From assembly GCA_038046665.1 (NCBI GenBank), contig JBBSVS010000089.1:1-28200 (forward strand): 28,200 nt of DNA. The letters are read 5' to 3'. The notes beneath the pieces were generated by a model, which saw only the letters and a program-made list of their open reading frames with translations, did no database searches and was not told the DNA's origin. How positions within the stretch are numbered: the first letter of the stretch is position 1; each line of letters starts with the position of its first letter. Source of the DNA: Thermoplasmatota archaeon. Its GTDB lineage: Archaea; Thermoplasmatota; Thermoplasmata; RBG-16-68-12. Shown here piece by piece: positions 2,211 to 24,088 of this stretch. A program made the translations under genes and the position numbers.

Positions 2211-2675
2211 GTGTTCCCCGTGGCCATACCGCTCGCCTACGCCACCACCCGCAACCGAAGAGCCCCGCCGTCCCTCCCCCTCGGCTGGGGAGCCGTGACG
2301 GTCCTCCTCGTGGGAGCGGCCCTCCTCATCATCGGTATCGTGATCATTCTCCTGGGGTTCTTCGATTTCATCTCGGGAACAGTGGGCGCGGCCACGAGCT
2401 CCTCCTTCAGCGTGACGACGTTCTTCCAGTCCTTCGTGGGGTCGATGATCCTCTTCGTCGTCGGCGGCGTCCTCGCAGGCGTCGGCGGCTGGCTCGTCCG
2501 TCTCTGGTGGCTCTTCCTCCTCGTCGGGGTCGTGACCGGCGCCGGGAGCACGGGCAACACCGTGCGGGAGCGCGAAGCGATGCGTGGGCCCGACGTGCGG
2601 GTTCGCTGCCGCGTGTGCGGCCGACTCAACCCCGAGGAAGCCAAGTTCTGCCTCTCCTGCGGGCAGGCCGTGTGA
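2211..2675 (+). CDS. Membrane protein with C-terminal zinc ribbon
   Basis: Several hydrophobic segments followed by CRVC...CLSC (CxxC-x10-CxxC). TATA-like box at 2148-2158. Confidence 0.7.
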   Translation: MFPVAIPLAYATTRNRRAPPSLPLGWGAVTVLLVGAALLIIGIVIILLGFFDFISGTVGAATSSSFSVTTFFQSFVGSMILFVVGGVLAGVGGWLVRLWWLFLLVGVVTGAGSTGNTVREREAMRGPDVRVRCRVCGRLNPEEAKFCLSCGQAV

Positions 2676-2734
2676 GTTCGACCCGCATCCTCTAATCGGA
2701 ACTTATTTGAACGGAAGCGCGGAATCGCCAGACC

Positions 2735-3577
2735 ATGGAGCTCCTCATTCGCCTCGCTCGCCAGTGGGTCGCGGGCGAGACGATCGAGGACGCCGTGCGC
2801 GTGGCCCTGGCGGCGAACGCCCGCGGGATCCACGCCATCGTGAACCACCTCGGGGAGCACTACCGTGAGAAGGGGCAGGTCGAGGCGACGGTCCAGGAAT
2901 ACCTGCGGCTCGTCTCGCAGCTCAGGGCCGCCGGCGTCGACGGCGACGTGAGCGTGAAGCCGACCCAGCTCGGCCTCCTCATCGACAAGGGATATGCCTT
3001 CTCCCATATCCTCCCGGTCCTCGACGCAACGAAGGCCTGGGGCCGCATCCTGTGGGTGGACATGGAGGCGGCGTCGACCGTCGAGGATACGATCTGGATC
3101 TACGAGAACCTACACACGCGGTATGAACGGGTCGGGCTCTGCATCCAGGCGAACCTCCGGCGGACGGAGGGAGACCTGCGGCGGCTCCTTGCAAACGGTG
3201 CGCGCATCCGCCTCGTGAAGGGCGCGTACAAGGAAACGCCCGAGGTCGCGTACGCGAGCCGCGCCGAGATCGACCGAGAATACGTGCGGCATCTCGAGAC
3301 CCTTTTCAAGGAGGGAAAGGACTTCGCGGTCGCGAGCCACGACGGGAAGATGATCGAGCGCACCCTCGAGTTCGCGAAGACGCATGCGGGCGTGCCCTTC
3401 GAGTTCGCGATGCTCCAAGGCGTCCGCGATCCCCTCAAGGCGGAGCTCGTGGGCCAGGGCCACCTGGTCACGGAGTACATCCCCTACGGTCCGACCTGGC
3501 TCCCCTACTTCAGCCGCCGCCTGCGCGAGCGACCCCGCAACATCGTCACGATGGTCCGATCCTTCGTCGGCGGATGA
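2735..3577 (+). CDS. Monofunctional proline dehydrogenase
   Basis: VSVKPTQLGL, VDME, GLCIQANL, RLVKGAYKE, ASHD, EFAMLQG and YIPYG...YFSRRLRERP are PRODH family motifs. Confidence 0.92.
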   Translation: MELLIRLARQWVAGETIEDAVRVALAANARGIHAIVNHLGEHYREKGQVEATVQEYLRLVSQLRAAGVDGDVSVKPTQLGLLIDKGYAFSHILPVLDATKAWGRILWVDMEAASTVEDTIWIYENLHTRYERVGLCIQANLRRTEGDLRRLLANGARIRLVKGAYKETPEVAYASRAEIDREYVRHLETLFKEGKDFAVASHDGKMIERTLEFAKTHAGVPFEFAMLQGVRDPLKAELVGQGHLVTEYIPYGPTWLPYFSRRLRERPRNIVTMVRSFVGG

Positions 3578-11567: not shown

Positions 11568-13670
11568 GTGCCGCTGCCGGCGTGCGACCCCACGGGGACC
11601 GTGCCGTGCCGCACGAACCTCAGCTTACTGCCGGATTGGACGCTCCTCGCCCTGTGGGCCGTCACCGCCGTGGCCGTCGCCTTCACGGCCTACGGGCTAT
11701 TGACGCGGTGGAAGGTGTGGAAGCAGGGCCCCGCAGGCTCCACGGGCGCATCCTTCTGGCTGCACCTGCAGCAGCTCCTCGTCGTCGGGATACTGCAAAA
11801 GAAGGTCGCGCAGCGCCGCTACGCGGGCGTGATGCACGTCCTGATGTACACGGGCTTCATCGCTCTCGGGATCGGCACCACGATCGTGTTCGTCAACATG
11901 GACATCACGGCCCAGGTGGACCTGGACATCCTCCGAGGCAATCCCTACCTCCTGTTCGAAGCCGCCCTGGAGTTCATGGGCCTCGCGTTCATCGTCGGCC
12001 TGGGGATGGTGTTCTACCGACGGCTCGCGGCCCGCCCCAAGTACCTGCGGAACGAGCGGCCGGACCTGTTCCTCCCGGGCATCCTCCTGCTCCTCATGCT
12101 CCAGGGCTACCTGCTCGAGGCGATTCGCCTCGCGGTCCTCCAGCCGAAGTGGGAGGAGTGGTCCTTCTTCGGGTACTTCCTGTCCCTCGGGCTGCGGGGC
12201 CTCGGGATCGATGAGACCCTAGCCACCGTCGCGGTGAGCGGCGGCGGGTCTGTCGTCACGATCACGCCCGTGCCGGCCCTGGCCTGGGGCTACGGAATCC
12301 TGTGGTGGTTCCACGCGGGCACGTGGTCCGCCATGCTCGCGACGCTACCGTGGACGAAGGCGAGCCACTTCCTCTTCAGCCCGGCGAACACGTTCTTCGA
12401 GCGCGCGCTCCCGTATGGCAAGCTGCCGACGGTCTTCGACATCGATGCGATGATGCAGGAGGGGGCCGCGCAGCCCATGATGGGCGCCGCGACGACGAAG
12501 GCCTTCTCCTGGTTCGACCGCCTCCAGCTCGACGCGTGCACGATCTGCGGCCGCTGCACGTCCGTTTGCCCCGCGTGGACCACGGGGAAGCCTCTGGATC
12601 CCATGCGCGTAATCCTCGACCTGCGGGAGGCGATGACGAAGGAGGCGAAGGGCGTGACCCTGGGGGAGCCGCTCCCGGACTTCGTCGGGTACGAGGAGCT
12701 CTTCGCCTGCACCACGTGCGGGGCGTGCATGCAGGAGTGCCCGGTGTCGATCCGCCATGTCCCCTTCATCGTCGAGCTGCGCCGCAACTTCGCCATGGAG
12801 CTCGGGAGAATCCCTGAGGAATCCCAGGGCATGCTGCGGAACATCGAGACGAACTACAACCCCTGGGGCATCGGATGGGACCAGCGGGGGAACTGGGCCG
12901 CGGGGATGGGCGTCCGCACGCTCTCCGAGGCCGTGGCCGCGGGCGAGGCCGTCGACGTGCTGTACTGGGTCGGCTGCGCCGCCTCCTTCGACGACCGGAA
13001 CAAGAAGGTCGCCCAGAGCTTCGCGCGGCTCCTGCAGAGGGCCGGCGTGCGCTTCGCAATCCTCGGGCCGGAGGAGAAATGCACAGGCGACCCGGCGAGG
13101 CGCCTCGGGAACGAGTACCTCGCGCAGAGGATGATCAAGGCGAACGTGGAGACGCTGAACCGGTATGCAGTCAAAACAATCGTCACCGCGTGCCCCCACT
13201 GCTTCAACACGCTGAAGCACGAGTATCCGGACTTCGGCGGGAGCTACGAGGTCATCCATCATTCCGTCTTCCTGGACGGGCTGCTCAAGCAGGGGAAGCT
13301 CAAGCCGACGAAGGAGGTCGAGTCGTTCCTGACGTACCATGACGCCTGCTACCTCGGGCGGTACAACAAGGTGTACGACGAGCCGCGGGATGTGCTCCTG
13401 CGCATCCCGGGCGTCCGCACGGTGGAGATGAAGCAGTGCCGGGAGAAGGGGTTCTGCTGCGGGGCCGGCGGCGCGCGCATGTGGATGGAGGAGAAGGTCG
13501 GCGAGAAGGTCAACCACCGCCGCCTCGACCACGTCGCGGAGACGGGGGCGAAGGCCGTGGCCTCCGCGTGCCCGTACTGCTTGATCATGATGGACGACGC
13601 GGCGAAGACGAAGAACCGGGAGGACATCGCCCGCGAGGATATCGCGGAGATCCTCGAGAAGTCCCTCTAG
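11568..13670 (+). CDS. Membrane-bound Fe-S oxidoreductase, FadF / ETF:menaquinone oxidoreductase-like (NarI-like membrane domain, 2x[4Fe-4S], two CCG domains)
   Basis: TM domain with conserved His (GVMHVLM, WWFHA, KASHF), CTICGRCTSVCP and CTTCGACMQECP, then WVGC...EKCTGD...TACPHC and YHDACYL...CCGAGG...SACPYC. SD GGAGGTG upstream. Confidence 0.88.
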   Translation: MPLPACDPTGTVPCRTNLSLLPDWTLLALWAVTAVAVAFTAYGLLTRWKVWKQGPAGSTGASFWLHLQQLLVVGILQKKVAQRRYAGVMHVLMYTGFIALGIGTTIVFVNMDITAQVDLDILRGNPYLLFEAALEFMGLAFIVGLGMVFYRRLAARPKYLRNERPDLFLPGILLLLMLQGYLLEAIRLAVLQPKWEEWSFFGYFLSLGLRGLGIDETLATVAVSGGGSVVTITPVPALAWGYGILWWFHAGTWSAMLATLPWTKASHFLFSPANTFFERALPYGKLPTVFDIDAMMQEGAAQPMMGAATTKAFSWFDRLQLDACTICGRCTSVCPAWTTGKPLDPMRVILDLREAMTKEAKGVTLGEPLPDFVGYEELFACTTCGACMQECPVSIRHVPFIVELRRNFAMELGRIPEESQGMLRNIETNYNPWGIGWDQRGNWAAGMGVRTLSEAVAAGEAVDVLYWVGCAASFDDRNKKVAQSFARLLQRAGVRFAILGPEEKCTGDPARRLGNEYLAQRMIKANVETLNRYAVKTIVTACPHCFNTLKHEYPDFGGSYEVIHHSVFLDGLLKQGKLKPTKEVESFLTYHDACYLGRYNKVYDEPRDVLLRIPGVRTVEMKQCREKGFCCGAGGARMWMEEKVGEKVNHRRLDHVAETGAKAVASACPYCLIMMDDAAKTKNREDIAREDIAEILEKSL

Positions 13671-20424: not shown

Positions 20425-23400
20425 TCAGCACTCGGAGTACCCGCAGGAGTGGCACTTCACGCAGCCCTCTTCGTAAATCAGGTGCTTGCCGCACTCGGGG
20501 CACTCGGGGTTAAGGCCCTTCTTGAGCATCTCTTCCGCGGACCGGGACTCCTTCTCCAGCTCCACGTCCGTCTCCACGGCACCGCCGAGCTCGTCGAAGG
20601 TCTCCACGGGCGGGACGACGCCGGACTTCTGCATCCCGATGTGCCGCTTGACCGCCTTCGCGACCGCGTCGGGGATCGAGTAGACGCGCTCGCCATGGTC
20701 CACGGCGATGCGCGGGCTGCGGATCCCCTCGAGCTGGTCGATGATCTCGTCCACGGGCACGCCGGACCGGAGGCACAGGGAGACGAGGCGGGCGATGCCC
20801 TCCGTGAAGGACGCGGTGTACCCGCCGCCGCGGCCGATCTGGGCGAAGACCTCGAACAGGCCCCTGTCGTCCTCGTTGATCGTCACGTAGAGCGCGCCGT
20901 AGCCCGTGAGAATCTTCTGCGTGCGGCCCGTAATCACGTCCGGGCGGGCCCGGGGGCGCACGGCGACCGGTTCCAGGGGAACCTGGACGGTGACCTGCTT
21001 GGGCTTCTCCTGATCCGACACGCCGATGTTCATGACCTGGTCCTCGCGGGAGCCGTCGCGGTACACGGTGATGCCCTTGCAGTGCAGCTCGTGGGCGAGG
21101 AAGTACGCCTTCTTCACATCCTCCACGGTGGCCTCGCGCGGCAGGTTGATCGTCTTCGAGACGGCGCTGTCCGTGTGGTCCTGGAAGGCGGCCTGCATGC
21201 GCACGTGCCACTCCGAGCCGATGTCGTGGGCCGTGGCGAAGACCTTCTGCCACTTCTCCGGGACCTCCGGCAGGCCGCGCGGGGACCCGTGGTTCTCGAG
21301 GATCCTCTGGACGAGGTCCTCCCGCCAGAAGCCCTCCCGCCGGGCGACCTCCTCGAAGAACTCGAGGAAGTAGGGGAGCTCCTCGCCGTCCATGACGCGC
21401 TTGTACCAGATCAGGCTGAACTCGGGCTCGCAGCCGCCGGACGTGTCCGCGATCATCGACAGCGTACCCGTCGGCGCGACCGTGGTCACGTAGGAGTTGC
21501 GCATCTTGAGCCCCGCCTCCCAGTGCCGGCTGCCCTCCCATGCGGGGTACACGCCCCGTGTGACCGCGAGCTTCTGGCTCTCGTCGTAGCCGATGTCGTG
21601 GATGAACTTCATCACCTTGCGGCCCGCCTCCACGCCCTCCGGGCTGTCGTAGGGGACCTCGAGCATGAAGAGCATGCGGGCGAAGCCCATGACGCCGAGG
21701 CCGATCTTCCGCGTGGCCTTTGTCATCTCCTCGATCTCCTTGACCGGGTAGGCATTCATGTCGATGACGTTGTCCAGTATGTGGACGCAGCTGCGGATCG
21801 AGGACTCGAGCTTATTCCAGTCCACGTCGTACTTGCCCGCCTTGGTACGGACCATGTGCCGCTCGAGGTTGATCGAGCCGAGGTTGCAGGACTCGTAGGG
21901 CAAAAGCGGCTGTTCGCCACAATTGTGCATTACTAGACAATTACCGACATAGGAGTGGGTTACGGGCTCTTCGAGATCGTACACGTCCTCCATGGCCGCG
22001 GGTTCAATCGCGGCGACCGAATCCTCGAATGTCTCGCGGTAGTAGGAATGCCCGCGCAGCTTTTCCTGCATTTCGGGCGCGACGACGTCCCCGAGGAATT
22101 CGAGCAAGCGGAGCACGTTGTCCCGGGACACATTCAACTCGAACAGTTCTCGCTGCGACCGATACTCACGAGGCTCTCCCTTGACGGTAACGTAGTAGAA
22201 CACCCGCGGAGATGCCTTCGTACGAAGGTAAATGGTGGATCGCACTCCAAGGGCTCCCAGGAGCTTCTGCACATCGTCGAGCAAGCCCCTCGAGGTCGAC
22301 GTCAGCCGCACATAAGCATTCGATCCGCGGACGAAGTTCTCCGTACCGTCGGAGCCGAAGAGCCCCTGGAGGAATCCAACCACCGCGGGAAGCGGCGCGC
22401 GGAGAACGGACTGGGGCACGCGCTTGTCGTGGCCTTGCCAAGCATCGACGCCCAAGCGCTGGAAGAACTCCACGACGTACTTAGAGTGGAACGACAGGTG
22501 GTAGACCCCGTTCTCCCGACGCACCGGGCGAATCCGTCGGCCCACGATGGCGGCCATGAAGCGCTCGACCCTCTCCATCGCAGCCCTTTCGGAAGGCGCG
22601 AAGGTGAAACCGACGCGGCAGTTTCGGTCCCCGGCGCGAAGCCACCCATCGCCAAGGAGCCAACCGAGGGCGAAACCGAGGTCCTCGGACCAACGGATTG
22701 GGAAACCGAACTGATACAAACGCCCGTTGGCGCCGCGGACCGCGTCCTTCATGCGAAACGGAAGCATGTCATTCGCGGAGAAATCGCAGGCTCCGGACTG
22801 AATCAACACTCGATCGCCGACCTCCAAGGAGTCCAGTCGGCGCCACCCCTCCGGAGTCAGGAAGCGGTGGTCCGCGGTCGCCCGCACGGAGTAACCTGAG
22901 TGGGTGACGAGTCGGCACACGGGCTTGACCCCAGTCTTCCACGCCCGCACGGCCTTCGTCTGGAGAACACCGAGGGTTAGCAAGCTTCGGCCATTTCCCA
23001 CCGACCGCACGTCAGAAACGAGATCGGCCGGGCCTCGATTCGCGAGTTCCCGAATCGGGACGAGCCCTTCGGCCGTCGCCACGAGCGTATCCCCGGTCAC
23101 GCATGGGTTCGTGGCCTCCATGAGTCCCACGTGGGGCGTCGGCTGCCGGCGGTTCGTCTCATCGATGAAGAAGAGGCCCGGCTCGCCGTTCTTCCACGCC
23201 TGGTAGGCGATCTTGTCGAAGACGTCGCGGGCGTCGAGCTGCTTGACGACCTGATGATTGCGGGGATTCACGAGGTCGTAGGAGGTCCCCGCCTTGACGG
23301 CCTCCATGAACTTGTCCGTCACCGCGACGGAGATGTTGAAGTTCGTGATCTCGGAGGTCCGGTCCTTGCAGGTGATGAACTCGAGGATGTCCGGGTGATC

Positions 23401-23973
23401 GATTCGCAGGATCCCCATGTTAGCACCCCGCCTCCTGCCGCCTTGTTTCACAGTCTGCGTGGACGCGTCGAAAATCTTCATGAAGGAGACGGGCCCGGAG
23501 GCCACGCCCATCGTCGACTTGACGAAGTCGCCCTTCGGGCGGAGGCGGGAGAAGCTAAAACCAGTTCCTCCGCCACTTTGATGGATCAGGGCCTGCTGCT
23601 TCAGCGCGTCGAAGATCCCGACGAGGCTATCGTCCACCGGGAGGACAAAACAAGCTGAGAGCTGCTGCAGGTCGAGGCCCGCGTTCATCAGCGTGGGACT
23701 GTTCGGCAGGAAATCCAGGTTGGACATGAGGCGGTAGAACCGCTTCGCGGCCTCCTCGACGCGGGCTTCGTCCCCGCCGTAGGAGCGCTCGGCCTGGGCC
23801 AGGTTCCAGGCCACGCGGGTGAAGAGCTCCTTGGGCGTCTCGATGACCTTGTTCTTGTCGTTCCGCTTGAGGTAGCGCTTCTCGAGCACGCGGAGGGCGT
23901 TCTCGGATAGCTGGGGATCGGGCTCACGCGCGAGAATGTCGATGCCCTTGGACTCGACGTTCATGTGTTCCAT
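20425..23973 (-). CDS. nrdJ: Class II adenosylcobalamin-dependent ribonucleotide reductase with intein, C-terminal TSCPD domain and zinc ribbon
   Basis: FLPNSPTL, SACFV, GGGTG, RRGANM, TNP|CGEQPL, CNLGS, GLGVMG, TVAPTGT, KTIN, KGITVYRDGSR; TSCPD region (RPDVITGRT...EVFAQIG) and CPEC...EEGC...CGYSEC. No N-terminal ATP cone seen. The ATG at 23973 follows GGAGAGG. Confidence 0.95.
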   Translation of the reverse strand: MEHMNVESKGIDILAREPDPQLSENALRVLEKRYLKRNDKNKVIETPKELFTRVAWNLAQAERSYGGDEARVEEAAKRFYRLMSNLDFLPNSPTLMNAGLDLQQLSACFVLPVDDSLVGIFDALKQQALIHQSGGGTGFSFSRLRPKGDFVKSTMGVASGPVSFMKIFDASTQTVKQGGRRRGANMGILRIDHPDILEFITCKDRTSEITNFNISVAVTDKFMEAVKAGTSYDLVNPRNHQVVKQLDARDVFDKIAYQAWKNGEPGLFFIDETNRRQPTPHVGLMEATNPCVTGDTLVATAEGLVPIRELANRGPADLVSDVRSVGNGRSLLTLGVLQTKAVRAWKTGVKPVCRLVTHSGYSVRATADHRFLTPEGWRRLDSLEVGDRVLIQSGACDFSANDMLPFRMKDAVRGANGRLYQFGFPIRWSEDLGFALGWLLGDGWLRAGDRNCRVGFTFAPSERAAMERVERFMAAIVGRRIRPVRRENGVYHLSFHSKYVVEFFQRLGVDAWQGHDKRVPQSVLRAPLPAVVGFLQGLFGSDGTENFVRGSNAYVRLTSTSRGLLDDVQKLLGALGVRSTIYLRTKASPRVFYYVTVKGEPREYRSQRELFELNVSRDNVLRLLEFLGDVVAPEMQEKLRGHSYYRETFEDSVAAIEPAAMEDVYDLEEPVTHSYVGNCLVMHNCGEQPLLPYESCNLGSINLERHMVRTKAGKYDVDWNKLESSIRSCVHILDNVIDMNAYPVKEIEEMTKATRKIGLGVMGFARMLFMLEVPYDSPEGVEAGRKVMKFIHDIGYDESQKLAVTRGVYPAWEGSRHWEAGLKMRNSYVTTVAPTGTLSMIADTSGGCEPEFSLIWYKRVMDGEELPYFLEFFEEVARREGFWREDLVQRILENHGSPRGLPEVPEKWQKVFATAHDIGSEWHVRMQAAFQDHTDSAVSKTINLPREATVEDVKKAYFLAHELHCKGITVYRDGSREDQVMNIGVSDQEKPKQVTVQVPLEPVAVRPRARPDVITGRTQKILTGYGALYVTINEDDRGLFEVFAQIGRGGGYTASFTEGIARLVSLCLRSGVPVDEIIDQLEGIRSPRIAVDHGERVYSIPDAVAKAVKRHIGMQKSGVVPPVETFDELGGAVETDVELEKESRSAEEMLKKGLNPECPECGKHLIYEEGCVKCHSCGYSEC
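21922..23103 (-). mobile_element. 394-aa intein with LAGLIDADG homing endonuclease, inserted at RNR TNP|CGE
   Basis: Begins CVTGDTLV and ends VYDLEEPVTHSYVGNCLVMHN, followed by Cys+1. Two LAGLIDADG-like blocks (ALGWLLGDGWL, FLQGLFGSDGT). More A/T-ending codons than the host exons. Confidence 0.95.
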
Positions 23974-24088
23974 GGAAAGACCCTCTCCACAGGGGCTTGG
24001 ATGCTGCACAACCAAGTCGTGGACGACCATCCCTGGGGGTGAGCGCGGCGAACGGAGGGCGGGGGTATAGTTCTTTTTGAATCACCTT

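What the first reader, a model, noticed from the sequence alone, without database searches (positions are those of the whole stretch)
21904..23658. A/T-ending codon patches exactly at RNR intein-homing motifs
Seen: nrdJ exons use almost only G/C-ending codons, yet short patches deviate. SACF = TCA GCT TGT TTT (23658-23647). HQSGGGTGF = CAT CAA AGT GGC GGA GGA ACT GGT TTT (23583-23557). TVKQGGRRRGA includes ACT, AAA, CAA, AGG AGG, GGT, GCT (~23454-23422). The occupied site reads CCA|TGT GGC GAA CAG CCG CTT TTG. Other equally conserved motifs (GLGVMG, APTGT) keep GC-ending codons. Established: GGG|TG and TNP|CGE are the insertion sites of the two Pyrococcus furiosus RNR inteins, and homing co-converts flanking bases. 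Inference: the patches are fossil co-conversion tracts from past invasion and precise loss of inteins, or synonymous recoding that makes empty sites resistant to homing endonucleases. Caveat: smaller AT-rich patches occur elsewhere (e.g. ~13161-13180).
Basis: partly seen in the sequence, partly recalled or inferred. Interest (0 to 1): 0.6.

Follow-up and report, generated by a model that had tools for sequence, protein, structure and literature searches.

The report
Codon scars at empty intein sites
Short runs of rare A/T-ending codons in this GC-rich archaeon's only ribonucleotide reductase gene lie exactly where sister species carry selfish inteins, so they record intein traffic, or defence against it, at sites that are empty today.

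Summary
In nrdJ (window 20425-24030, minus strand), 8% of extein codons end in A/T. Within -4..+5 codons of five intein insertion points the figure is 19 of 44, against 39 of 743 elsewhere (Fisher 5e-12; 0 of 20,000 synonymous shuffles). I defined those points independently, from 34 congeneric alleles. LSA|CF, HQ|SGGG, GGG|TG and KQGG|K/R are empty here but hold LAGLIDADG inteins in sister species. TNP|CGE is occupied here.

Intein-free alleles show no patches (excess +0.01, n=8). Intein-bearing alleles do (+0.25, n=44). The same signature marks empty intein sites in this genome's MCM (three sites) and Hel308 genes. It is weak or absent in Top6B, AtpB and Mrp.

The mechanism is not settled. 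Co-conversion is shown at the occupied site, where flank codons follow intein type. Inteins are always AT-richer than their hosts. However, the closest relative keeps 11 of 12 A/T-ending codons in patches B and C, against 5 of 30 elsewhere. So these are not neutral fossils: they are either refreshed by repeated invasion and loss, or selected as escape recoding.

This scan has noted similar footprints on other DNA. In passing: the KQGG-site intein family lacks a +1 nucleophile.

The parts
20425..24030 (-). nrdJ, class II (adenosylcobalamin) ribonucleotide reductase ORF with one intein. 1201 aa as the longest ORF; the true start is probably Met20 or Met23.
   Evidence: Pfam Ribonuc_red_lgN, Ribonuc_red_lgC, TSCPD, LAGLIDADG_3 and Intein_splicing; translation.
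21922..23103 (-). Resident LAGLIDADG intein (394 aa, Cys1 ... His-Asn, +1 Cys) at insertion point D, TNP|CGE. This is 'type 1'; 24% of its codons are A/T-ending.
   Evidence: The same intein type occurs in G053 (L040).
23647..23658 (-). Patch A: TCA GCT | TGT TTT (S125-F128) across empty insertion point A (A126|C127, between 23653 and 23652).
   Evidence: A 353-aa intein sits here in 10 congeneric alleles. The closest relative L122 has AGC GCC TGC TTC, and 7 consecutive codons differ.
23557..23583 (-). Patch B: CAT CAA | AGT GGC GGA GGA | ACT GGT TTT (H150-F158) across two empty insertion points, B1 (Q151|S152, 23578|23577) and B2 (G155|T156, 23566|23565).
   Evidence: B1 inteins in G003 and G004; B2 (PI-PfuI-like) inteins in G012 and G002. 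25 of 27 nt match the flanks of the B1 intein of G004. Shared with L122.
23422..23454 (-). Patch C: ACT GTG AAA CAA GGC GGC | AGG AGG CGG GGT GCT (T193-A203) across empty insertion point C (G198|R199, 23437|23436).
   Evidence: A 448-aa LAGLIDADG intein sits here in 11 congeneric alleles. Shared with L122.
23104..23106 (-). Last N-extein codon CCA (Pro309) before the resident intein.
21901..21921 (-). First seven C-extein codons after the resident intein, TGT GGC GAA CAG CCG CTT TTG. This flank haplotype goes with the type-1 intein.
   Evidence: Shared with G053 (L040). It differs from the closest relative L122, which carries a type-2 intein.

Best explanation
The patches are marks of homing-intein traffic on the target sites of nrdJ.

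Proposed mechanism:
- In this archaeal genus (probably Thermoplasmata), five points in the N-terminal third of the only RNR gene are targets of distinct LAGLIDADG inteins.
- These inteins circulate among species and are always richer in A/T-ending codons than their GC-rich hosts.
- When an intein homes, repair of the double-strand break copies a few flanking extein codons from the donor along with it (co-conversion).
- This writes a short, AT-richer, foreign-looking tract of up to about 10 codons around the insertion point.
- The tract stays when the intein is later lost, and is rewritten at each new round of invasion and loss.
- This genome is currently occupied at TNP|CGE and empty at the other four points, but carries the tract at all of them.

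Shown: the position of the patches on real insertion points; their restriction to intein-bearing alleles; the AT-richer make-up of the inteins; flank haplotypes that follow intein type at the occupied site; and the same signature in MCM and Hel308.

Inferred: that this lineage once held inteins at A, B and C and lost them precisely, and that refreshment by repeated cycles, rather than selection, keeps patches B and C.
For: 1. All patches lie on insertion points occupied in congeners. Enrichment is 19/44 against 39/743.
2. Intein A/T-ending fraction is 0.13-0.38, against extein background 0.04-0.22, in every allele.
3. Closest relative L122 (about 91% nt identity) carries a different intein type at D. 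Its flanks differ from the window's in codons 309-317, while the window shares its flank with G053, which has the same intein type. Flank identity depends on intein type after allowing for extein identity (0.878 against 0.823; label permutation 0 of 2000).
4. Patch B is 25/27 nt identical to the flanks of the B1 intein of G004, itself in a GC-rich allele. The same 21-mer follows a homologous B1 intein in a 62% GC Methylomirabilota bacterium, and is the native sequence of many low-GC RNR genes.
5. Intein-free alleles show no excess (+0.007, n=8). Intein-bearing alleles show +0.25 (n=44). D-only alleles with A, B and C all empty mostly show +0.3.
6. Patch A is absent from L122, which suggests a recent event.
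7. Empty intein sites in MCM (5-6 of 12 codons at each of three sites) and Hel308 carry the same signature. MCM site c matches the flanks of intein-bearing alleles.
8. Co-transfer of flanking extein codons with inteins is described for haloarchaeal MCM (PMC10643990).
Against: 1. L122 retains 11 of 12 A/T-ending codons in patches B and C, but only 5 of 30 elsewhere (Fisher 1e-5). Neutral relics should have decayed, so recurrent resetting or selection must be added.
2. At site C and at MCM site b, intein-bearing alleles mostly have GC-type flanks, and the empty alleles are the AT-type ones.
3. Patch A matches no intein-bearing flank found (8/12 at best).
4. Precise intein loss is thought to be rare, yet the model needs it at several sites and in several lineages.
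5. Identity of AT-type flanks can be partly convergent, because two-fold codons have only one alternative.
6. Empty sites in AtpB, Mrp and (weakly) Top6B lack the signature. An equally strong patch in an aldehyde dehydrogenase has no intein in the genus.
7. Alleles are related, so the counts overstate independence.
Confidence: 0.5

Rival explanations
1. Escape recoding. Empty sites are under selection to avoid cleavage or invasion by the circulating homing endonucleases. Synonymous changes in the roughly 20-30 bp recognition sequence are favoured and kept. In a genome with GC3 near 0.95, almost every synonymous change, and every GC-to-AT transition, gives an A/T-ending codon.
For: - Patches B and C are retained non-neutrally between the window and L122.
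- Codon entropy at conserved residues is 0.43 bit higher in site windows than elsewhere (p 1e-11), with six Ser codons in use at S125.
- Patches are short (about ±6 codons), the size of a LAGLIDADG recognition site.
- At site C and MCM site b, the empty alleles are the recoded ones, while occupied alleles keep ancestral GC-type flanks.
- Empty alleles often lack the +1 nucleophile: S152G/A at B1, Ala instead of Ser in Hel308, Val instead of Thr at MCM-a including this genome. The same kind of resistance is described in haloarchaeal MCM (PMC10643990).
Against: - The window's B1 site is identical, from -3 to +6 codons, to the fused flanks of the B1 intein of G004. That should be its cognate target.
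- Intein-free alleles with GC-type sites persist in species that hold other inteins. This is odd if GC-type sites are the sensitive ones.
- Intein-bearing alleles at B and D have AT-type flanks too.
- No cleavage data exist.
Confidence: 0.33
2. Short-patch recombination with lower-GC alleles, or local selection on codons (for example translational pausing or mRNA structure), acts at highly conserved motifs for reasons unrelated to inteins. The overlap with intein sites arises only because inteins also prefer conserved motifs.
For: - An 8-of-9 patch lies on the conserved EYYAGLADK motif of an aldehyde dehydrogenase with no intein in 37 congeners.
- An AT-rich patch at nrdJ codons 414-422 in lower-GC alleles has no intein anywhere in the order.
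Against: - Other equally conserved nrdJ motifs are GC-ending.
- Eight intein-free alleles with the same amino-acid motifs have no patches.
- Random placement of sites never reaches the observed enrichment.
- Two of the three strongest patches in the genome are at intein sites.
Confidence: 0.06
3. Chance or assembly artefact: a chimeric MAG contig built from strains of different GC content.
For: The genome is a fragmented MAG (444 contigs). Patch A is seen only in this assembly.
Against: 0 of 20,000 shuffles reach the observed values. Patches B and C are present in an independent metagenome contig (L122). Similar patches occur in dozens of independent assemblies.
Confidence: 0.01

Closest known systems
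Co-conversion of extein flanks, and invasion-resistant alleles, in haloarchaeal MCM inteins (PMC10643990, PNAS Nexus 2023)
   Same: There are several intein sites close together in one essential gene. Inteins carry at least the adjacent extein codon when they move. Empty alleles differ at the +1 residue in a way that blocks invasion, and neighbouring inteins interact. Here MCM-a, Hel308 and nrdJ-B1 show the same +1 pattern.
   Different: That work deals with amino-acid changes and measured homing rates. It does not describe a codon-composition signature at empty sites, nor its retention between species. The host here is a GC-rich, probably Thermoplasmata lineage, and the gene is nrdJ.
Co-conversion tracts of the angiosperm mitochondrial cox1 homing group I intron, used as footprints of intron loss (from my own knowledge: Cho et al. 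1998; Sanchez-Puerta et al. 2008; not read here)
   Same: A short stretch of donor-type exon sequence beside the insertion point persists in alleles that lack the element, and is read as evidence of past occupancy.
   Different: That case is an intron rather than an intein, with a single site. The tract there is treated as a neutral marker. Here there are five sites within 185 codons, and two patches are kept beyond neutral expectation.
PI-PfuI (Pyrococcus furiosus RIR1-1 intein endonuclease, PDB 1dq3) and allelic RNR inteins
   Same: The G155|T156 intein of congeners aligns full-length with PI-PfuI (E 4e-31) and hits Pfam's PI-PfuI subdomain weakly, below its cut-off. So patch B covers a classical RNR homing site.
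   Different: This genome has no intein there. The Pyrococcus insertion context itself was not re-read here.
Target-site resistance alleles against homing-endonuclease gene drives (from my own knowledge)
   Same: Silent changes in the recognition sequence of an essential gene give immunity to a homing element.
   Different: That is known from engineered drives and theory. A natural, multi-site, codon-usage-readable case in archaea has not been shown, and is not shown here.

Membership tests
Homing co-conversion tract / footprint of a homing intein | Lies on a genuine homing site: related alleles hold an endonuclease-bearing intein at that exact point. | tested here: met
   Sites A, B1, B2, C and D are occupied in congeners. 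LAGLIDADG domains are present in the B1, B2, C and D inteins; none was recognised in the A intein.
Homing co-conversion tract / footprint of a homing intein | The tract sequence follows the intein (donor), not the host gene's phylogeny. | tested here: inconclusive
   Met at D. Suggestive at B (25/27 to the G004 flanks). Not met at A (8/12) or at C, where occupied alleles are mostly GC-type.
Homing co-conversion tract / footprint of a homing intein | Composition matches the mobile element and differs from the host gene. | tested here: met
   Inteins 0.13-0.38 A/T-ending, against host 0.04-0.22. Window patches 43%, against 5% elsewhere.
Homing co-conversion tract / footprint of a homing intein | Absent from lineages without the element. 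| tested here: met
   Eight intein-free alleles show excess +0.007, against +0.25 in 44 intein-bearing alleles.
Homing co-conversion tract / footprint of a homing intein | After loss of the element, the tract behaves as a neutral relic. | tested here: not met
   11 of 12 A/T-ending codons of patches B and C are kept in L122, against 5 of 30 elsewhere.
Homing co-conversion tract / footprint of a homing intein | This lineage formerly held the intein at the now empty site. | not testable with these tools
   No ancestor or population sample of this species is at hand. The closest allele, L122, is also empty at A, B and C.
Endonuclease-resistant (immune) target allele | The site is not cleaved by the cognate homing endonuclease. 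| not testable with these tools
   Needs a cleavage or plasmid-protection assay.
Endonuclease-resistant (immune) target allele | The site differs from the fused flanks of intein-bearing alleles at recognition positions. | tested here: inconclusive
   B1: no difference from G004 over -3..+6 codons. C: differs from most occupied alleles (AAA CAA against AAG CAG; Arg against Lys at +1), but Arg at +1 occurs in other occupied alleles.
Endonuclease-resistant (immune) target allele | The variant is maintained by selection. | tested here: inconclusive
   Retention and raised synonymous diversity fit selection, but recurrent conversion would give the same result.
Class II ribonucleotide reductase (NrdJ) with a class 1 LAGLIDADG intein | RNR all-alpha and barrel domains; an intein with Cys1, terminal His-Asn, +1 Cys and a LAGLIDADG domain. 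| tested here: met

The most novel reading that the evidence does not exclude
Empty intein homing sites in this lineage are under continuing selection for silent (and +1-residue) escape from LAGLIDADG homing endonucleases. This would be a natural counterpart of gene-drive resistance. The arms race would be readable directly from codon usage: A/T-ending codon islands of recognition-site size, kept between species and hyper-diverse across the genus.
Probability: 0.33. Interest if true: 0.75.

Novelty: new variant of a known kind. Interest (0 to 1): 0.6.

Why it matters
Inteins are thought to cycle through invasion, decay and loss, but loss leaves no obvious trace. The selective cost of homing endonucleases to their hosts is also hard to see in genomes.

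Here a simple statistic, runs of rare A/T-ending codons in a very GC-rich genome, pinpoints intein insertion points that are empty. It does so in several genes (nrdJ, MCM, Hel308). It also separates alleles with an intein history from naive ones.

If the patches are co-conversion scars, they give a way to count past invasions and losses. If they are selected, they are natural resistance alleles against homing endonucleases. That would make the intein-host conflict testable with a handful of cleavage assays.

Either way, the signature can be used to predict homing sites and endonuclease recognition sequences from sequence alone.

Tried and rejected
- Longest exact shared runs between the window and other alleles. 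These were dominated by conserved motifs with preferred GC codons, so they say nothing about conversion.
- Viral reservoir. The patch-B 21-mer is absent from IMG/VR. The patch-A 17-mer hits 44 viral contigs, but only 6 are RNR genes, all low-GC and none next to an intein.
- Precise excision leaving the intein's own first codons at site A. The A intein is flanked by a 7-nt direct repeat (TGCTTCG, from Cys-Phe at both ends), but its codons are TGC TTC, not the window's TGT TTT.
- Mutual exclusion of the A, B and C inteins. They never co-occur in 35 alleles of the genus. However, A+B2 and A+C+D occur in the sister genus, so it is not a rule.
- Mirror-image strand skew around the sites, as noted elsewhere in this scan. 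It is only weak here at four-fold codons (purine fraction 0.53-0.57 upstream against 0.42 downstream, background 0.44). It is confounded by amino-acid content and by relatedness of the alleles.
- K199R as a splicing-incompatible escape at site C. Rejected, because homologous inteins elsewhere are followed by Arg.
- Generality. Not every empty site carries the mark (AtpB 0/12, Mrp 1/12, Top6B 3/12). One strong patch, in the aldehyde dehydrogenase, has no intein in the genus.
Full report
THE GENE

The ORF at 20425-24030 (minus strand) is a class II ribonucleotide reductase, with Pfam Ribonuc_red_lgN, Ribonuc_red_lgC and TSCPD domains. One LAGLIDADG intein (aa 310-703; window 23103-21922) is inserted at TNP|CGE. 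The genome is a 1.82-Mb, 444-contig MAG with 66% GC and median GC3 0.88. Names on related proteins point to Thermoplasmata, but I did not verify the taxon.

THE OBSERVATION

A/T-ending codons make up 8.1% of the 807 extein codons and 24% of the intein. They cluster in three places:
- SACF: 4 of 4 codons.
- HQSGGGTGF: 8 of 9.
- TVKQGGRRRGA: 5 of 11.

Synonymous shuffling within the gene never reproduced an 8-of-9 window (0 of 20,000). Among 1444 ORFs of the genome, only about three internal 8-of-9 windows exist.

THE PATCHES LIE ON INTEIN INSERTION POINTS USED IN THE SAME GENUS

I searched the N-extein against 37 congeneric genomes. The matches were split at exactly three places. I then fetched 35 alleles and mapped the junctions. 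This gave five insertion points:
- A, A126|C127: a 353-aa intein in 10 alleles.
- B1, Q151|S152: 422 aa, in G003 and G004.
- B2, G155|T156: about 476 aa, in G012 and G002. It is a full-length homologue of PI-PfuI (PDB 1dq3, E 4e-31).
- C, G198|K199: 448 aa, in 11 alleles.
- D, P309|C310: two intein types. One is 394 aa and ends His-Asn, as in the window. The other is about 412 aa and ends Arg-Gln or Arg-Asn.

The B1, B2, C and D inteins carry LAGLIDADG domains. No intein interrupts the C-extein anywhere in 79 genomes of the order.

With these independently defined points, 19 of 44 window codons at -4..+5 are A/T-ending, against 39 of 743 elsewhere. The odds ratio is 13.7 and Fisher p is 5e-12. 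No synonymous shuffle or random site placement reached this value.

ACROSS THE GENUS

The mean A/T-ending profile of all alleles peaks at the same four places. There is one exception, at codons 414-422 in the lower-GC alleles, where no intein is known.

Eight alleles without any intein show no excess at A, B and C (+0.007). Forty-four intein-bearing alleles show +0.25 (Mann-Whitney p 1e-5). Most alleles that hold only a D intein still carry the patches at their empty A, B and C sites. The alleles are related, so these p-values overstate independence.

OTHER GENES OF THIS GENOME

The second-strongest patch in the genome lies in a Hel308/Ski2-type helicase on contig C152. It sits just upstream of ATTTL|A, where seven congeners hold a roughly 393-aa intein.

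I sampled 60 intein loci of the genus and mapped them back to this genome. This revealed further empty sites. A/T-ending counts in 12-codon windows were as follows:

| Gene and site | A/T-ending codons of 12 |
|---|---|
| MCM, three sites | 5, 6 and 6 |
| Top6B | 3 |
| AtpB | 0 (a small patch lies 8-13 codons upstream) |
| Mrp | 1 |

Over the eleven empty sites there are 49 A/T-ending codons, against 14.4 expected.

The aldehyde-dehydrogenase patch has no intein in the genus. So the mark is common at empty intein sites, but it is neither universal nor exclusive.

EVIDENCE FOR CO-CONVERSION

- Inteins are AT-richer than their host exteins in every allele.
- A metagenome scan found a closer relative, L122 (93% aa, about 91% nt identity, background A/T-ending fraction 0.03). 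It carries the other intein type at D. Its flanks differ from the window's in codons 309-317. The window shares TGT GGC GAA CAR CCG CTT TTG with G053, which has the same intein type.
- Over 25 D-occupied alleles, flank identity depends on intein type after allowing for extein identity (0.878 against 0.823; 0 of 2000 label permutations).
- Patch B is 25/27 nt identical to the flanks of the B1 intein in the GC-rich allele of G004.
- Its right-hand 21-mer also follows a homologous B1 intein (42% identity) in a 62% GC Methylomirabilota bacterium. The same 21-mer is the native sequence in about 20 low-GC RNR genes. Because two-fold codons have only one alternative, part of this identity may be convergent.
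- MCM site c in this genome likewise resembles the flanks of intein-bearing alleles.

EVIDENCE THAT THE PATCHES ARE NOT PASSIVE RELICS

Between the window and L122, A/T-ending codons turn over quickly. Only 5 of 30 outside the site windows are shared, which is close to saturation for a two-state model. Yet 11 of 12 in patches B and C are shared (Fisher 1e-5). The surrounding codons have diverged normally.

Patch A is the opposite case. L122 has AGC GCC TGC TTC there, and seven consecutive codons differ. That is the longest run of differences in the gene.

Across the genus, conserved residues in the site windows use more synonymous codons than the same amino acids elsewhere (+0.43 bit, p 1e-11).

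At site C and at MCM site b, the intein-bearing alleles mostly keep ancestral GC-type flanks, and the empty alleles are the recoded ones.

Empty alleles also often lack the +1 nucleophile:
- Gly or Ala for Ser152 at B1.
- Ala for Ser in Hel308.
- Val for Thr at MCM-a, including in this genome.

This is the kind of resistance described for haloarchaeal MCM (PMC10643990).

READING

That the patches are caused by intein homing pressure on these sites is, in my judgement, very likely (about 0.85). Which process writes and keeps them is open.

I give 0.5 to co-conversion footprints refreshed by repeated invasion and loss. This accounts for the AT-rich make-up, the type-specific flanks at D, the match at B and the recent event at A. 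It does, however, need frequent precise loss.

I give 0.33 to selected escape recoding. This accounts for the retention, the hyper-diversity, the recognition-site size of the patches and the pattern at C and MCM-b. It sits badly with the window's B1 site being identical to an intein-bearing allele's fused flanks, and with GC-type intein-free alleles persisting in intein-rich species.

The two processes are not exclusive. A cleavage assay on AT-type against GC-type targets would separate them.

RELATION TO WHAT IS KNOWN

Co-transfer of flanking extein codons and invasion-resistant empty alleles are described for haloarchaeal MCM inteins (PMC10643990). From my own knowledge, co-conversion tracts as footprints of element loss are classical for the plant cox1 intron.

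I found no paper that describes a codon-usage signature at empty intein sites, or its retention between species.

Earlier notes of this scan report similar AT-rich or A-ending patches at empty intein sites on other DNA (e1-3958793, e1-5839390). So the phenomenon recurs.

Noticed in passing
L047:727-2070 (G046) and 10 other alleles of the genus; L276 (sister genus); proteins P0002-P0121: The intein at KQGG|KRRGANMG has no +1 nucleophile. The +1 residue is Lys in all 11 alleles of the genus, and Lys, Arg or Ile in about 60 homologous inteins of Thermoplasmata, DPANN, Asgard, Bathyarchaeia and Actinomycetota. Only the most distant homologues (33-38% identity) are followed by Thr. Cys1 and the terminal His-Asn are conserved. 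In five genomes with this intein (one 98% complete), the interrupted nrdJ is the only RNR found. So the enzyme must mature by a route that textbook splicing does not cover. Earlier notes of this scan report the same lineage with Arg at +1.
   Followed up: partly
G000 contig C432, about nt 2286-2290 (outside the window): A second family-B DNA polymerase gene is frameshifted exactly at an intein insertion point (LKWLLVT|SFGY). Four bases (GCAT) stand where the +1 Ser codon should be, and congeners hold 175-527-aa inteins there. This could be an imprecise excision, an error-prone repair scar after endonuclease cleavage, or an assembly error.
   Followed up: partly
L031-L036, L042, L044, L051, L052, L055, L122 and others (insertion point D): The second intein type at TNP|CGE ends in Arg-Gln or Arg-Asn. 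The terminal residue is polymorphic within one intein family, and the penultimate residue is Arg rather than His.
   Followed up: no
Insertion point A in L017-L019, L037-L044: The A intein begins Cys-Phe and the C-extein begins Cys-Phe. This gives a 7-nt direct repeat (TGCTTCG) at both ends, which would allow precise deletion by slippage. One allele of the sister genus holds a 181-aa mini version.
   Followed up: partly
35 nrdJ alleles of the genus; L274-L278: Inteins at A, B and C (within 72 codons of each other) never co-occur in one allele of the genus, while each co-occurs with D. In the sister genus, A+B2 and A+C+D do occur. This may relate to the interference between neighbouring inteins described in PMC10643990.
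   Followed up: partly
G000 contig C311, ORF 63-1580, codons about 137-146 (outside the window): An 8-of-9 A/T-ending codon patch lies on the conserved EYYAGLADK motif of an aldehyde dehydrogenase. Orthologues in 36 congeners are uninterrupted, so this patch is not explained by inteins.
   Followed up: partly
G000 contig C300, about nt 2400-3450 (MCM; outside the window): About 1 kb of MCM spanning three empty intein sites is rich in A/T-ending codons, while both ends of the gene are GC-ending. At the Walker A site this genome has GDPG|VGKS, where intein-bearing alleles have GDPG|TAKS.
   Followed up: partly
It lies just before a CPHC motif of a membrane-anchored iron-sulfur/CCG-type oxidoreductase. 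I did not test whether it is an intein site.
   Followed up: no
nrdJ alleles, ±8-15 codons round the four sites: At four-fold codons there is a weak excess of purine third positions upstream and pyrimidines downstream (0.53-0.57 against 0.42; background 0.44). This is far weaker than the mirror skew noted elsewhere in this scan, and is not established here.
   Followed up: partly
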